From a virus, in IMG/VR virus record IMGVR_UViG_3300030616_000016, positions 70,561-134,560 of that record: a stretch of 64,000 bases of DNA. One strand, 5' to 3'. The notes beneath the pieces are model-generated. The model saw only the letters and a list, made by a program, of their open reading frames with translations. It was not told the DNA's origin and ran no database searches. Position 1 is the first letter of the stretch, and the number at the start of each line of letters is the position of its first letter. Position numbers and translations under genes: made by a program. This document shows, piece after piece, positions 46,328 to 63,792 of this stretch.

Positions 46328-46669
46328 TCAATTGACTGATTTGGATCCACAGTTTGGACATTCAAATAAGAGTTTAATATCATAGCCACAATAAAAGCAT
46401 TGATTATACGGCTCAAGATATTTTATAGTATTGACTGTATTAATAGTTGTGCCAAGTGCGACATTGCTATTAGGGTTTAGAGTGGCATTAGAAAGCTGAA
46501 ACATATTCCATTTTAATCTTTTAGTTATATATACATTGTGCTTATGAGTCCAATTGTATATATAATTCCTATGTACATCGGAAATATCTTCGTTACAAGT
46601 AAGTATGTTCTTGTGATATCTGACGCGTATGTGTCGCTTCATTACTTTTGCGGCTTCTCTATATTTCAT
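46328..46669 (-). CDS. member of the small zinc-ribbon paralog family (C-terminal CFYCG...CPNCGS)
   Basis: Shared N-terminal MKYREAAKV-type start and a C-terminal CxxCG-x8-CxNCG. Confidence 0.5.
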   Translation of the reverse strand: MKYREAAKVMKRHIRVRYHKNILTCNEDISDVHRNYIYNWTHKHNVYITKRLKWNMFQLSNATLNPNSNVALGTTINTVNTIKYLEPYNQCFYCGYDIKLLFECPNCGSKSVN

Positions 46670-46910
46670 TGTGATGGTCCATTTCCGAATACGACTCCGT
46701 CTCTGTACCCTTCTGTATGTCCAGCATTATATCCTGCCGCATAGGCTTTCTTTGCTAGTTCTTTTTGCTTTTTATCTTTTATACTAGCAGCTCTACACCA
46801 TTTCTTGAATTCCTTCTCACTGTATTCCATCATCCTCCTCCTCATAGCGGTCATCTTCAGTCATCTTATGGCGACTTAAGAATGCCCATATTATTATGAT
46901 TATCAATAAT

Positions 46911-47153
46911 TCAACCCCCATTGTTGTCTCCATCTACATGATGATTTTTGCAAATTCTTACCTTGTGTCCTTGATAGTCAATTTCTTTTGTATCCGCCAT
47001 GGCATTCAATCTGCCACAAATAATACATCTTCCAACTGACTTTCTCTTTTCAGCTATTTTATTGCCCAGCAATGCTTTACTATCATTATTTTTGCTCATA
47101 AAAATTCTCCTATTGGTTATGTTGTTGTCTGATAACATTAAGGAATGCATCAA
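46911..47153 (-). CDS. small zinc-binding hypothetical protein (80 aa)
   Basis: CIICG...H..VRICKNHH. Confidence 0.35.
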   Translation of the reverse strand: MMHSLMLSDNNITNRRIFMSKNNDSKALLGNKIAEKRKSVGRCIICGRLNAMADTKEIDYQGHKVRICKNHHVDGDNNGG

Positions 47154-47439
47154 TTCTATCAGAAGGTCTTTTGCGCAATTCTTGAATATAAATCGCGCGT
47201 CTTTTGGTAAGATTATCTATCCTCTCTTTTAGTTTCACTTCTTTCCTTGAAATATAAAACTTTCTTACTATTGGTGATAGAACAAACCATCTACTCTTTA
47301 GTTTTTCGTACTTTACTTTCAATAGCCATATTTCATCATTTAAATTGTTTATGGCAATAGATAAATCAGCACCTGACATTTTTGGAATAAGGTTAGTTTT
47401 CATGCTCTCTCCATATTTCATAATAATGTAGAGCCGCAT
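47110..47439 (-). CDS. hypothetical coiled-coil protein (109 aa)
   Basis: minus-strand ORF. Confidence 0.35.
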   Translation of the reverse strand: MRLYIIMKYGESMKTNLIPKMSGADLSIAINNLNDEIWLLKVKYEKLKSRWFVLSPIVRKFYISRKEVKLKERIDNLTKRRAIYIQELRKRPSDRIDAFLNVIRQQHNQ

Positions 47440-47777
47440 AAATCACAAATCTTCTGCTCTATATTAATATCTTTATTCCCACAAAATGGACATAATGCTA
47501 AATGAATGTTCTGAATGTCTGTTGATGTTAATGCTGCTGTATGCCAATAAGAGTCTATGACTATTGATTTATACTCCATGTGTATTCTAGATATTTTGAT
47601 ACTCTTGTTTGCTATAGTATTTGGAAGCCTGCATTGATACATTGTTGTACCATCTCCTTTATCATATATAGCACCATTAATAAGAGGAGAGTTTTCATCT
47701 TGTACATAAATTACAGACCATTGGTTTTCGTATGCAATAACACATTCTTCATAGGTCATTATGATACTCTCCTTCAA
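47418..47777 (-). CDS. zinc-ribbon paralog family member (LCPFCGNKDINIEQKICDLCGS)
   Basis: family signature. Confidence 0.5.
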   Translation of the reverse strand: MKESIIMTYEECVIAYENQWSVIYVQDENSPLINGAIYDKGDGTTMYQCRLPNTIANKSIKISRIHMEYKSIVIDSYWHTAALTSTDIQNIHLALCPFCGNKDINIEQKICDLCGSTLL

Positions 47778-47784
47778 TAATCAA

Positions 47785-48108
47785 TTAGTATTCTATAATG
47801 ACTTCTGGCTGTTTATACTCATTTGTATCTTTGTTAGTTTTAACCGGCGGCAAGACATTAATGATCCTACCATATGTGTCTTTTACTGTGCGGCTCGCTT
47901 CAAATTCTTCTTGTGTTAGTTCATTGGGATTGCCATACTGTTTGACCCATCCATTATATAGCTGCTTAGCATTTCTTTCTCTTTTTTGTATGATGCTTTT
48001 GCTGCTTCTAAATGTACATATAATCATTGATGAAAGTATGCAGATTATCGCTAATAGTACTACTAATTCAATAAAGGCAAACCCTTTATTACACTTTAAT
48101 ATTTTCAT
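47785..48108 (-). CDS. prepilin-type N-terminal cleavage/methylation domain protein (ComGC-like pseudopilin, 107 aa)
   Basis: MKILKCNK-GFAFIELVVLLAIICIL is a basic leader followed by G|F, Glu at +5 and a hydrophobic helix, i.e. a class III signal peptide. Confidence 0.6.
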   Translation of the reverse strand: MKILKCNKGFAFIELVVLLAIICILSSMIICTFRSSKSIIQKRERNAKQLYNGWVKQYGNPNELTQEEFEASRTVKDTYGRIINVLPPVKTNKDTNEYKQPEVIIEY

Positions 48109-48119
48109 GATATCTCCTG

Positions 48120-62240: not shown

Positions 62241-62512
62241 TCTGCGTCCTCCTGTTCTGGTTCTGGTCTTGTTACTTTAAATCCCATGTTTTCAACTTCA
62301 TCCAAAGTATAAGCATCCTTCCGTGGTTCTTTATATTTTCTGCTTAATTCTATCCATTTATTACAACTTGGACAACGGCTATACATGTTCCTGATTTCTG
62401 TAGGGTCAACCTTATTCAGCATGCACTCTCCATCTTTGCTTTGAAATGAATCAACAGTGGTTCCACAAAAAGGGCAATACATTTCAAAGTTTACATAGTC
62501 ATACATTCCCAT
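62237..62512 (-). CDS. small zinc-ribbon protein (YCPFCG...CPSCNKW)
   Basis: CxxCG pairs. Confidence 0.4.
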   Translation of the reverse strand: MGMYDYVNFEMYCPFCGTTVDSFQSKDGECMLNKVDPTEIRNMYSRCPSCNKWIELSRKYKEPRKDAYTLDEVENMGFKVTRPEPEQEDAE

Positions 62513-62730
62513 TCTACGTCCTCCTCAATTATTTTTTGAAGACTTTTGAAATCTGACTTTAAGTCAAAAATTGCTTTTATCATCCATCCTATCGATGTTA
62601 GTATAAATGTGATAAAGCAATAGAAAACTATATCCATTTGGTATTCTCCTGTATGTGTATCCGGCCATTTATTAGGCCAAAATGGCCTGATTGATAATTA
62701 AGTTTGTTCGATAGGCGCCGCTTAACCGCT

Positions 62731-62781
62731 TATCAAGGTGCATTCGTAAGACCCCTGGCTTTAGGCGTGGGGTAATGTCAC
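62731..62781 (+). mobile_element. Minimal (about 51-bp) IS605-family end remnant: LE start (TTATCAAGGTGCATTCGTAAGACCCCTGGCTTTA) fused directly to the RE terminus (GGCGTGGGGTAATGTCAC)
   Basis: Identical strings to the ends of the elements at 21866-23167 and 33634-33883. It supplies the last 6 codons and the stop of ORF 62761-63024. Confidence 0.55.
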
Positions 62782-63024
62782 TTCTAAATCTAGTTCATAT
62801 TTAATTGTTTTTACTAGATCATTAATTAATTCTGGACGTGTAGCCATAGTTTCTACATTCCAATTTCTGTTGATGTATTGTGGTTTACATCTTAAATTAA
62901 AATTTCCTCCAATATCAGAGATAGATTCAATTATAGCTTTGATTCTTTCAGGAGTTAAACCAGCATTATGATAGTCTTCAAAACTCAAATGGATTATTGT
63001 TGTTGTATAATAATTAAGTTTCAT
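62761..63024 (-). CDS. hypothetical protein (87 aa); the C-terminal LEVTLPHA and the stop are encoded by the IS remnant
   Basis: minus-strand ORF. Confidence 0.4.
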   Translation of the reverse strand: MKLNYYTTTIIHLSFEDYHNAGLTPERIKAIIESISDIGGNFNLRCKPQYINRNWNVETMATRPELINDLVKTIKYELDLEVTLPHA

Positions 63025-63274
63025 TGTTCAATTCCTTTAGTTTAGCTTTCCATTGTTTTTCTGAATACCATTTGCCATCGAGACACCAAGCCTTATCTCC
63101 ACTAGCCCACTCAATTGAAGGTCCATCTTCTCTGTGATATTTGTCATTAATACACCAATACTTACTTCCATTGAAACCCTCAATTGCTGGAGCACCTTTT
63201 CGATGTAAGATTTTGTTTTTATCATAATGATCAAGAATGCTACCATCTTTATAATAGAATTTACTTCTTCTCAC
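63014..63274 (-). CDS. MORN-like repeat protein (two HREDGP(A/S)IEW..G(S/D)K.W repeats)
   Basis: LHRKGAPAIEGFNGSKYW and YHREDGPSIEWASGDKAWCLDGKWY. Confidence 0.4.
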   Translation of the reverse strand: MRRSKFYYKDGSILDHYDKNKILHRKGAPAIEGFNGSKYWCINDKYHREDGPSIEWASGDKAWCLDGKWYSEKQWKAKLKELNNET

Positions 63275-63318
63275 GTTTAGCCCTTTCTCTTATTAAATAA
63301 TTAATCTATTTTCAATAT

Positions 63319-63792
63319 TTAAGTGGTTTGTAACTCGGCAATAAGTAATGTGTTTCGTAAGATACTGCGCACGCTCTCAAAACTAAGATACAAATCGCTG
63401 TAGCAATCATTACATGACTCATATGGATAGTTATTGTATATATTATCACTCCCACAAAATGGACATGTTAATTTATATAAACTATCAGATACACATTTGT
63501 TAATATTGAATGTGAATAATTTTAATGTTAGTGCGTTGCCTTCATCGAGCGGGACTTTGAACAATAAACTATAGGTACATATATTGTCACTCCCCTTTTT
63601 TCCTATACTTTCTAGATAAAGCGGCAATTTTCTTTGTTGGCCTATGTTAAGTTCTTGAGATACAACAGTCTCCTCCTCATCTGTCATATGGAACCTATAG
63701 TTAGTCGTTTGAGTCTCGTTAAGTGTATATGGGTTAGCAATATAAATAAGCGGCCATTTCTCTTTCATAGCCTTAAGTAAGTTCAATTCCAT
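63319..63792 (-). CDS. hypothetical protein with C-terminal CPFCGSDNIY...CNDC zinc ribbon (family-like)
   Basis: CxxCG signature. Confidence 0.45.
   Translation of the reverse strand: MELNLLKAMKEKWPLIYIANPYTLNETQTTNYRFHMTDEEETVVSQELNIGQQRKLPLYLESIGKKGSDNICTYSLLFKVPLDEGNALTLKLFTFNINKCVSDSLYKLTCPFCGSDNIYNNYPYESCNDCYSDLYLSFESVRSILRNTLLIAELQTT

What the first reader, a model, noticed from the sequence alone, without database searches (positions are those of the whole stretch)
46328..63792. Expanded family (at least 9 copies) of small proteins with homologous N-terminal domains and a C-terminal CxxCG-x(6-9)-CxNCG(C/S) zinc ribbon
The ORFs at 46328, 47418, 48517, 54415, 54757, 55555, 56325 and 58074 share MT(F/I)xEA...-type N-termini and near-identical terminal zinc ribbons such as (I/Q/R)C(K/E/Q)(F/Y)CG...C.NCG(C/S). 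Looser relatives are at 6232, 62237 and 63319. Such diversified multigene families in large phages usually serve host takeover or anti-defence functions, each copy with a different target. They are concentrated in the 46-64 kb accessory region, interleaved with tnpB remnants.
Basis: seen in the sequence. Interest (0 to 1): 0.6.

Follow-up and report, generated by a model that had tools for sequence, protein, structure and literature searches.

The report
Expanded orphan zinc-ribbon protein family
An uncultivated 231-kb jumbo phage carries at least 13 copies of a small protein found nowhere else, a conserved start and zinc-binding tail around a fast-changing middle, whose copies are gained, lost and recombined between strains; it probably binds host targets, but its function is untested.

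Summary
Nine minus-strand ORFs in 46.3-63.8 kb end in a CxxCG-x(5-13)-CxxC(G/Y) zinc ribbon (11 motif hits in the window, 0.0 in shuffles). A leave-one-out family HMM recovers all nine. Seven also share an N-terminal helix/strand motif (MTxxEAxxAxxN..V). Between subfamilies that ~20-residue motif is the only detectable N-terminal similarity. The copies at 54415 and 55555 share only the C-terminal part. The ORFs at 6232 and 62237 are not members; 45220 may be. Four more copies, one frameshifted, lie just past the window end.

Pfam, PHROGs, three indexed searches and an exhaustive HMMER scan of 1.84 billion proteins found no homologue outside this phage lineage. An AlphaFold model (pLDDT 86.6) shows an N-terminal helix, an SH3/Sm-like small beta-barrel with a long variable loop, and a C-terminal zinc ribbon. 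No specific structural relative was found, and a Tad2/DUF2829 lead was rejected.

Three strain haplotypes differ by a whole-copy indel, a frameshift and a chimeric gene made by unequal crossover inside the conserved 5' end. N-domains are 66-84% identical against a 98-100% background.

Best reading: a lineage-specific birth-and-death family of mostly acidic binder proteins, probably for host interaction or counter-defence. That function is inferred, not shown.

The parts
46328..46669 (-). Family copy, 113 aa. It is the only clearly basic member (pI 9.5). N-terminus MKYREAAKVMK; ribbon CFYCG-x8-CPNCG.
   Evidence: Motif scan. Left-out family HMM E 1.5e-4 with a full-length alignment. The N-terminal motif is weak: third-ranked non-training ORF. 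pI.
47418..47759 (-). Family copy, 113 aa (MTYEEC...; the longest ORF runs to 47777). Ribbon CPFCG-x10-CDLCG.
   Evidence: called gene P0001. RBS GAAGGAG ahead of the Met at 47759. Left-out HMM E 2.8e-9. Left-out N-terminal motif E 8.6e-5.
48517..48912 (-). Family copy, 131 aa (MTFKEAVRAY...). Ribbon CKYCG-x10-CNNCGC. An MqsR-toxin homologue starts 29 nt downstream.
   Evidence: P0010. Left-out HMM E 1.2e-13. Left-out N-terminal motif E 3e-3. MqsR hit.
54415..54747 (-). Ribbon-sharing relative, 110 aa. Its N-terminal region is unrelated and has two extra Cys pairs (CVCITC, CESC). Ribbon CKFCG-x9-CSSCG.
   Evidence: The left-out HMM matches only profile positions 63-115 (E 4.5e-5). No N-domain similarity by hhalign.
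54757..55101 (-). Family copy, 114 aa (MTIEEAMHAIK...; the longest ORF runs to 55230). Ribbon CEFCG-x8-CKNCGC.
   Evidence: called gene P0009 starts at this Met. Left-out HMM E 1.5e-13. N-domain shuffle z 4.5 against 58074.
55555..55866 (-). Ribbon-sharing relative, 103 aa (also called as 98 aa from Met6). N-terminal region unrelated (MPQVGELWQW...). Ribbon CQFCG-x8-CCNCGC.
   Evidence: P0005. The left-out HMM matches only profile positions 71-118 (E 2.5e-8). No N-domain similarity.
56325..56756 (-). Family copy, 143 aa (MKLKEVRQCYKNGLKV...), subfamily B together with the copy at L002 8088-8507. Ribbon CKFCG-x7-CLNCGC plus a 17-aa tail.
   Evidence: P0002. Left-out HMM E 1.8e-13 with a full-length alignment.
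58074..58403 (-). Family copy, 109 aa (MTIQELQIAKEN...), subfamily A. This is the modelled member: helix 3-11, strand 16-18, variable loop 19-48 with a QPPL motif, four-stranded barrel 50-85, then ribbon CKYCG-x8-CTNCG.
63319..63792 (-). Divergent family copy, 157 aa (MELNLLKAMKEKWPLIY...). Ribbon CPFCG-x13-CNDCY followed by a 26-aa tail.
   Evidence: Left-out HMM E 2e-4 with a near full-length alignment. N-terminal hhalign against subfamily C aligns 7-20 with 6-19, P 0.007.
45220..45702 (-). Possible tenth, distant copy, 160 aa as the longest ORF. Ribbon CNYCG-x24-CIHCGC with a long insert; no N-terminal motif.
   Evidence: Family HMM, not trained on it, gives E 8.5e-4 over profile positions 44-107. 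BLAST against 55555 gives E 2.5e-5 in a 13-sequence database. Membership is uncertain.

Best explanation
This is a lineage-specific, tandemly and dispersedly duplicated family of small cytoplasmic proteins (about 100-160 aa). The 231-kb phage contig carries at least 13 copies: 9 in the window (possibly 10) and 4 just beyond its end.

Each typical member has three parts. First, a conserved N-terminal helix plus first strand. Second, an SH3/Sm-like small beta-barrel whose long loop between strands 1 and 2 and whose surface vary almost without limit between copies. Third, a conserved C-terminal four-cysteine zinc ribbon.

The family evolves by birth and death. Unequal crossover within the conserved 5' coding end makes chimeras and deletes or adds copies. 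Frameshifts inactivate copies. Diverged alleles replace N-domains between otherwise near-identical strains.

The most likely role is a repertoire of protein-binding host-interaction factors (counter-defence or takeover). In that reading the conserved helix and ribbon are the scaffold, and the variable loop and barrel surface set target specificity.

Shown: the family, its architecture, its restriction to one lineage, and its turnover mechanism. Inferred: protein binding, and a host or defence target.
For: The motif is far beyond chance. All nine copies are recovered in leave-one-out tests. The N-terminal motif is recovered in leave-one-out tests and always aligns in register.

There is no homologue outside the lineage. 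Pfam and PHROGs give nothing significant. The indexed searches return only self and strain variants. The exhaustive search of 1.84e9 representatives returns only self hits plus generic multi-ribbon proteins that match profile positions ~96-118. tblastn against 50,697 phage records gives nothing.

Turnover is directly visible. Four further copies lie at L002 7094-8507. Haplotype L005 has an extra whole copy. Our haplotype has a 1-nt deletion in copy 2, reproduced in the independent assembly L009. L008 carries a copy1/copy2 chimera whose crossover lies in the N-terminal-helix codons.

Divergence is mosaic: 66-73% and 84% nucleotide identity in N-domains against 98-100% in flanking DNA, where a neighbouring 58-aa gene has 2 synonymous changes in 177 nt. 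dN/dS is 0.54, 1.83, 0.40 and 0.5.

11 of 14 members are acidic to near-neutral, pI 4.5-6.1, which fits protein binding better than generic nucleic-acid binding.

The setting is a region of small accessory genes: MqsR-like toxin, DUF488, pentapeptide, YopX, a TnpB remnant.

Precedent: a 52-aa phage zinc-ribbon protein, Enki, inhibits AbiH and a retron (bioRxiv 10.1101/2024.06.14.598830).
Against: No functional evidence of any kind was obtained: no partner, no expression timing, no known host. Only one subfamily was modelled with confidence. The model of 47418 was poor (pLDDT 47.7), so a common barrel fold for all copies is an extrapolation from shared secondary-structure order and the two conserved ends.

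Three of four between-strain dN/dS values are below 1. The one above 1 rests on 3 synonymous and 21 nonsynonymous changes. Part of the divergence reflects allele replacement rather than in-place positive selection.

Sm, KOW and Tudor-like barrels and zinc ribbons are also typical nucleic-acid binders. Iyer et al. 2021 (PMC7824862) proposed transcription-factor or DNA-binding roles for the analogous ZnR expansion in phage G.
Confidence: 0.45

Rival explanations
1. The proteins are nucleic-acid-binding regulators: specific transcription factors, RNA chaperone-like proteins, or cofactors of the phage's own multisubunit RNA polymerase. Each paralogue would serve different promoters or transcripts, as proposed for the ~35-copy ZnR expansion in Bacillus phage G.
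Confidence: 0.2
2. There is no single family. Unrelated small proteins independently acquired, or were fused to, a generic zinc ribbon, so only the ribbon is shared.
For: N-domain-only BLAST finds nothing below E 0.5. The subfamily-A N-domain HMM finds no other subfamily. A leave-one-out test on the 31 residues before the ribbon fails. 54415 and 55555 share only the C-terminal part.
Against: Seven copies share both ends. The N-terminal 20-residue motif is found by a leave-one-out HMM as the top non-training ORF in 5 of 7 cases. Independent profile-profile comparisons always align it in register from residue 1. Lengths, strand, clustering and the ribbon signature (aromatic after the first Cys, NCG[CS] at the second knuckle) are all shared. 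A 13-paralogue alignment gave AlphaFold a confident model, where a 9-paralogue alignment of another member did not. For 54415 and 55555, domain shuffling of the ribbon module remains plausible.
Confidence: 0.1
3. The proteins are antitoxin-like partners of adjacent toxic genes, by analogy with MqsA, which uses a zinc-binding domain to hold the MqsR toxin.
For: Copy 48517-48912 ends 29 nt upstream of an MqsR_toxin homologue at 48120-48488 (PF15723, E 1.2e-10, 42 bits against a cut-off of 26). Several other copies are followed by small membrane-protein ORFs (by eye).
Against: Only 1 of at least 13 copies is next to a recognisable toxin. Four or five copies sit head-to-tail with nothing between them. 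There is no HTH domain. MqsA's zinc site is N-terminal with about 30 residues between the Cys pairs, and the gene order is reversed relative to mqsRA (general knowledge of MqsRA).
Confidence: 0.05
4. The proteins are mimics or competitors of the ribosomal zinc-ribbon protein bL32 and act on host ribosomes.
For: The family profile's best PDB sequence matches are the bL32 ribbons of Firmicutes (E 0.002; 'CpnCG..klshrvCknCGs').
Against: The match covers only 24 residues of a generic two-knuckle ribbon. The N-terminal part of bL32 is absent. Thirteen hypervariable copies make no sense for a single conserved ribosomal site.
Confidence: 0.03

Closest known systems
[quoted passage not shown] 2021, Viruses 13:63, PMC7824862)
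   Same: A jumbo phage carries many paralogous small proteins built on a zinc ribbon. Their function is unknown, and they are restricted to one lineage.
   Different: No sequence relationship was detected: tblastn of 48517 against all 50,697 phage records gave nothing at E <= 1. The two ribbon ORFs seen in the first 50 kb of phage G have the ribbon at or near the N-terminus or after a membrane segment, not a helix-barrel-ribbon order. That was only a partial look. The authors propose transcription-factor or DNA-binding roles, whereas this family is mostly acidic.
SH3/Sm-like small beta-barrels (PetP 7r0w_V, MIB1 Mib repeat 4xi6, Hfq 1kq1, Spt5 KOW, Tudor)
   Different: Sequence identity is 2-17%. 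There are no Pfam LSM, Hfq, SH3 or KOW hits. A roughly 30-residue insert sits between strands 1 and 2, and a zinc ribbon is fused at the C-terminus. Foldseek against the PDB found nothing below E 0.1.
Two-knuckle rubredoxin-type zinc ribbons (bL32, eL37, Nop10, RNA polymerase subunit P; Pfam DZR, Zn_ribbon_3, Zn_Ribbon_1)
   Same: CxxCG-x(5-13)-CxxCG, with an aromatic residue after the first Cys. The bL32 ribbon aligns over 24 residues at E 0.002.
   Different: All Pfam ribbon models score below their gathering thresholds (best 21.3 bits against 27.3). The context differs entirely.
Small phage zinc-ribbon counter-defence proteins: Enki (52 aa, anti-AbiH and anti-retron; bioRxiv 10.1101/2024.06.14.598830) and Lar-like restriction alleviation (PF14354)
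   Same: Small phage accessory proteins whose recognisable feature is a zinc ribbon. Two copies give weak Lar_restr_allev hits (E 0.012-0.16).
   Different: There is no significant similarity: the Lar hits fall well below the 28.6-bit cut-off, and the Enki sequence was not compared. Those are single genes, not an expanded family with an N-terminal barrel.
Tad2 / DUF2829 (anti-Thoeris sponge; AcrIIA7)
   Same: The N-terminal helix motif looks alike by eye: M-x-F-x-E-A-l-x-a-l-k-x-G-k-k-V against MTFKEAVRAYINKTPV and MTLDEINECIKSGRRI.

Membership tests
Generic zinc ribbon (Pfam DZR PF12773, Zn_ribbon_3 PF13248, Zn_Ribbon_1 PF13240) | Two CxxC knuckles separated by a short hairpin | tested here: met
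   CxxCG-x(5-13)-CxxC(G/Y) is present in all nine copies. The four Cys are invariant in the alignments. The modelled ribbon has pLDDT about 85.
Generic zinc ribbon (Pfam DZR PF12773, Zn_ribbon_3 PF13248, Zn_Ribbon_1 PF13240) | Score at or above the Pfam gathering threshold | tested here: not met
   The best is DZR at 21.3 bits against 27.3, for the copy at L002 7094. All window copies score 17.3 bits or less.
Generic zinc ribbon | Zinc actually bound | not testable with these tools
   This needs metal analysis of purified protein.
Tad2 / DUF2829 | Profile-level sequence similarity across the domain, including the GW-GKGMF and C-terminal W..S..D..A.DW motifs | tested here: not met
   hhalign of A4 against A5 aligns only residues 1-16, probability 2.7%. 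There is no Pfam DUF2829 hit at E <= 10. The Tad2 invariant columns listed are absent from the family.
Tad2 / DUF2829 | Tad2 fold | tested here: not met
Sm / Hfq | N-terminal helix plus five-stranded bent barrel | tested here: inconclusive
Sm / Hfq | Sm1/Sm2 sequence motifs (Pfam LSM or Hfq hit) | tested here: not met
   No such Pfam hit at E <= 1 or <= 10.
Lar-like restriction alleviation (PF14354) | Pfam model at or above its gathering score; ribbon at the N-terminus | tested here: not met
   16.3 and 12.6 bits against 28.6. PHROG Lar-like families give E 0.09-0.11. Here the ribbon is C-terminal.
MqsA-type antitoxin | Zinc-binding domain plus C-terminal HTH, paired with an MqsR toxin | tested here: not met
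   One copy (48517) lies next to an MqsR homologue, but no copy has an HTH or MqsA Pfam hit, and the other copies have no toxin neighbour.
Phage G ZnR expansion (Iyer et al. 2021) | Sequence homology to the phage G ZnR paralogues | tested here: not met
   tblastn of 48517 against all phage records, phage G included, gave no match at E <= 1. This tested one query only, and short ribbons are hard to detect this way.
Phage G ZnR expansion (Iyer et al. 2021) | Same kind of phenomenon: a lineage-specific multi-copy small ZnR family in a jumbo phage | tested here: met
   At least 13 copies on a 231-kb phage contig and no homologue elsewhere.

The most novel reading that the evidence does not exclude
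The family is a phage-encoded binder repertoire on a fixed scaffold. A conserved N-terminal helix and C-terminal zinc ribbon hold a small barrel whose long loop, in the position of the SH3 RT loop, is the hypervariable specificity element. The conserved 5' and 3' coding ends double as recombination handles, so unequal crossover and allele exchange between co-circulating strains continually generate new inhibitors against different host defence proteins.
Probability: 0.2. Interest if true: 0.65.

Novelty: new member of a known kind. Interest (0 to 1): 0.38.

Why it matters
Lineage-specific expansions of tiny proteins are where large phages are thought to keep their host-manipulation and counter-defence tools, but almost none has been characterised. 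This family offers a compact, confidently modelled scaffold (helix, SH3/Sm-like barrel, zinc ribbon), at least 13 natural variants, and three strain haplotypes that catch the diversification mechanism in the act: unequal crossover in the conserved 5' end, a whole-copy indel, a frameshift and allele replacement.

If the copies prove to be inhibitors with distinct targets, they would be a ready-made panel for discovering defence systems of the unknown host, and a small natural binder scaffold. If they prove to be regulators, they would parallel the phage G ZnR expansion.

As it stands the result is a well-documented orphan family, not a new mechanism.

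Tried and rejected
1. Tad2/DUF2829 lead, raised from memory of the N-terminal motif. Real Tad2 sequences were recovered from the PDB and aligned. hhalign against the family N-domains gave probability 2.7% over 16 residues, and there was no fold match. Rejected.

2. First AlphaFold run, 47418 with 9 paralogues: pLDDT 47.7, unusable.

3. Whole N-domain homology across subfamilies:
- BLAST without the ribbon found nothing.
- The subfamily-A N-domain HMM found no other subfamily.
- A leave-one-out HMM on the 31 residues before the ribbon failed, although a hairpin pattern looked conserved by eye.

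4. DNA-level repeats among copies: only the first knuckle codons, 27 nt at 74-85% identity, so there has been no recent gene conversion among the window copies.

5. Sigma-70 promoter and terminator scan of 45-64 kb: no enrichment over shuffles.

6. Searches for related phages:
- megablast of 14 kb against phage records: nothing.
- RNA polymerase subunit by tblastn: only distant hits below 44% identity over partial lengths.
- IMG/VR with 58074 and with the 546-aa neighbour: nothing.
- JGI metagenomes with the 546-aa neighbour: nothing.
- GTDB genomes: nothing.

7. The afdb50 fold library was unavailable. BFVD gave nothing below E 0.05.

8. Phage G comparison: only the first 50 kb was fetched, giving two ribbon ORFs. 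The family there was not characterised, and the paper's supplement is not held.

9. PADLOC models: no hit for three family members.

Full report
CONTEXT. The window is the reverse complement of roughly positions 97,000-161,000 of a 231,593-bp metagenomic contig (ENA ERZ27252234 k141_1275754; a 231,647-bp twin exists in JGI/IMG). Essentially all real genes lie on the minus strand. The contig encodes a split multisubunit RNA polymerase beta-like subunit, UvrD and DEAD helicases, a Ser/Thr kinase-like protein, a full-length TnpB, RecA-like, RuvC and PolIII-alpha genes. It is therefore a jumbo phage. It has no close relative among 50,697 phage records or in IMG/VR.

THE OBSERVATION. A strict pattern, C..CG-x(3-14)-C..C[GY], occurs 11 times in six-frame ORFs of the window. 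Nine of these lie within 3-26 residues of the C-terminus of minus-strand ORFs ending at 46328, 47418, 48517, 54415, 54757, 55555, 56325, 58074 and 63319. The other two are a 224-aa protein at 10940 and a TnpB remnant at 42.1 kb. Nucleotide shuffles and residue shuffles of the real ORFs never produced a single match. Every copy has an RBS-like GGAG/AGGA before its start. For 47418 and 54757 the biologically sensible start is an internal Met (MTYEEC, MTIEEA), as also called in the source assemblies. A full-length family HMM rebuilt without each member recovers that member at E 6e-17 to 2e-4 among 489 ORF segments. The family is real.

HOW MUCH OF THE PROTEIN IS SHARED. With the ribbon removed, pairwise BLAST finds nothing below E 0.5. 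Shuffle z-scores exceed 2 only among 47418, 48517, 54757 and 58074 (maximum 4.5). Profile-profile comparison of ribbon-less subfamily alignments aligns only the first 8-24 residues, but always in register from residue 1 (A-B P 0.036, A-C 0.011, B-C 0.004, C-63319 0.007, C-46328 0.096). A 20-residue N-terminal HMM ranks the left-out member as the best non-training ORF in 5 of 7 tests (E 8.6e-5 to 0.7). A leave-one-out HMM on the 31 residues preceding the ribbon failed.

The core seven (46328 weakly) therefore share two anchors, the N-terminal helix plus strand 1 and the C-terminal ribbon, around a middle that has diverged beyond sequence recognition. 54415 and 55555 match the family only over the C-terminal 45-55 residues and have unrelated N-termini. 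54415 also has two extra Cys pairs. The ORFs at 6232 (E 0.07) and 62237 (E 1.7) share only a knuckle and are not members. 45220-45702 is a possible distant member (E 8.5e-4).

MORE COPIES AND STRAIN VARIATION. The 10 kb beyond the window end (L002) holds four further head-to-tail copies at L002 7094-8507. One is split by a 1-nt deletion, and the same frameshift appears in an independent JGI assembly (L009, 99.6% identical). A second haplotype (L005, ERZ27252253) has five intact copies, including one whole copy of about 313 bp that is absent from our phage. A third haplotype (L008) lacks copy 1. Its first gene is a chimera that follows copy 1 for about 7 codons and then copy 2, with the crossover inside the conserved N-terminal-helix codons.

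Between L002 and L005 the flanking DNA is 98-100% identical, and a neighbouring 58-aa gene has 2 synonymous changes in 177 nt. Identity nevertheless falls to 66-73% across the N-domain of copy 1 and to 84% at the 5' end of copy 4. dN/dS is 0.54, 1.83 (21 nonsynonymous against 3 synonymous changes, concentrated in the N-terminal helix and residues 67-75), 0.40 and 0.5. The dS of 0.5 for copy 1 in a ~99% identical background implies allele replacement by recombination rather than in-place mutation (inference). Window copies vary less: 97-99% between samples. At the DNA level the window paralogues share only the first knuckle codons, so the dispersed duplications are old.

NO RELATIVES ELSEWHERE. 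Pfam and PHROGs give only sub-threshold generic ribbon hits, and PADLOC gives none. Three indexed searches of 5.8 billion clusters return only the phage's own proteins and strain variants. An exhaustive hmmsearch of 1.84 billion representatives returns the eight training sequences, one untrained paralogue variant (P0022, 5e-5), and otherwise proteins with multiple generic ribbons matching profile positions ~96-118. tblastn against phage records gives nothing, and GTDB genomes give nothing. The proteins occur on one or two large contigs and a few short ones from the same sample series.

STRUCTURE. AlphaFold2 of 47418 with nine paralogues was poor (pLDDT 47.7). 58074 with 13 paralogues gave pLDDT 86.6 and pTM 0.75. 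The model has helix 3-11, strand 16-18, a long loop 19-48 (low confidence only at 28-33; it carries the subfamily-A motif G-x-HYS-x5-QPPL-x2-PF), strands 50-57, 65-71, 74-79 and 83-85, and then the ribbon.

FUNCTION (INFERENCE). 11 of 14 members are acidic to near-neutral, pI 4.5-6.1. None has a signal peptide or membrane segment by eye. They sit among small accessory genes: an MqsR-toxin homologue, DUF488, pentapeptide-repeat proteins, YopX, DUF6745 paralogues and a TnpB remnant.

Lineage restriction, copy-number polymorphism, pseudogenisation, chimera formation and local hyper-divergence are the signature of genes in conflict with a variable target. Together with the acidic charge, I favour protein-binding host-interaction or counter-defence factors, in which the conserved helix and ribbon form the scaffold and the long loop and barrel surface carry specificity (confidence about 0.45 for the whole statement). 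Small zinc-ribbon phage proteins can act this way: Enki inhibits AbiH and a retron (bioRxiv 10.1101/2024.06.14.598830).

The main rival is a family of nucleic-acid-binding regulators, as proposed for the ~35-copy ZnR expansion in phage G (PMC7824862). The fold class fits that reading, but the charge and the dispensability of copies do not. An antitoxin-like role is suggested only by the adjacency of 48517 to the MqsR homologue. A bL32-mimic role is suggested only by a 24-residue motif match.

NOVELTY AND VERDICT. The phenomenon, a lineage-specific expansion of small ZnR proteins in a jumbo phage, has been described. This family is new in sequence and has no specific structural relative, and its turnover mechanism is unusually well caught across three haplotypes. 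Its function remains untested. I rate it a new member of a known kind, with interest 0.38.

Noticed in passing
window 878-2026 (-): A 382-aa reverse transcriptase whose best PADLOC matches are retron-type RTs (RT_II-A, E 1.4e-37). It overlaps the end of a RecA-like gene at 1983-3107. A retron-like RT in a jumbo phage; no msr/msd RNA was searched for.
   Followed up: partly
window 48120-48488 (-): A homologue of the MqsR ribonuclease toxin (PF15723, E 1.2e-10, 42 bits against a cut-off of 26) encoded by the phage, 29 nt downstream of family copy 48517-48912. No MqsA-like HTH antitoxin is evident.
   Followed up: partly
window 21900-23117 (-), 41987-42298 (+), 55971-56312 (+): One full-length TnpB (OrfB_IS605 plus TNB domain) and two C-terminal TnpB remnants (PF07282, E 5e-20 and 8e-13). 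Related ~45-nt repeats occur at 21865-21907, 23126-23168, 33630-33675, 33841-33883 and near 62770; they may be element ends or MITE-like.
   Followed up: partly
window 48928-48937 and 58461-58470: The 10-bp palindrome TCTTTAAAGA occurs only twice in the window, each time in the short intergenic region just upstream of a family copy (48517 and 58074). The expected count is 0.21, and 2 of 100 shuffles reach 2.
   Followed up: partly
window 61020-62240 (-); L002 8755-9870: A 406-aa DUF6745 protein with about 38 tandem 12-nt (4-aa, L-x-x-S/D-type) repeats at 61601-62056. A 371-aa paralogue lies just beyond the window, and the 3' ends of the two genes share an 82-nt stretch at 94% identity (61016-61097 and 63919-64000).
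   Followed up: no
window 49037-49381 (-): A DUF488 protein that matches the PADLOC candidate defence component PDC-M45C (E 4.5e-10).
   Followed up: no
window 47785-48108 (-): A 107-aa protein with a prepilin-type N-terminal methylation motif (KGFAFIELVVLLAI; PF07963, E 0.0035, below the cut-off), which is unusual in a phage accessory region.
   Followed up: no
window 52762-54402 (-): A 546-aa protein in the middle of the cluster with no Pfam hit. By eye it contains an 'IKYDGAS' stretch reminiscent of the KxDG motif of ATP-dependent ligases or capping enzymes. No relatives were found in IMG/VR or JGI contigs.
   Followed up: partly
window 46911-47153, 51062-51310, 58477-58740, 59599-59835, 62237-62512 (all -): Five further small Cys-pair proteins of 78-91 aa, unrelated to the family, lie in the same accessory region. 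Small zinc-binding ORFs in general are over-represented here. Only weak Pfam hints were found (DUF6083, HNH, DUF7577).
   Followed up: partly
window 28240-29895 (-): A 551-aa protein with a weak Ser/Thr kinase domain (PF00069, E 4e-7, just below the cut-off) and PADLOC hits to mad6 and PD-T4-6 kinases.
   Followed up: no
window 59154-59615 and 60332-60634 (-): Two pentapeptide-repeat-like proteins with 15-nt tandem DNA repeats (59482-59571 and 60459-60563) next to a YopX gene (58737-59105).
   Followed up: no
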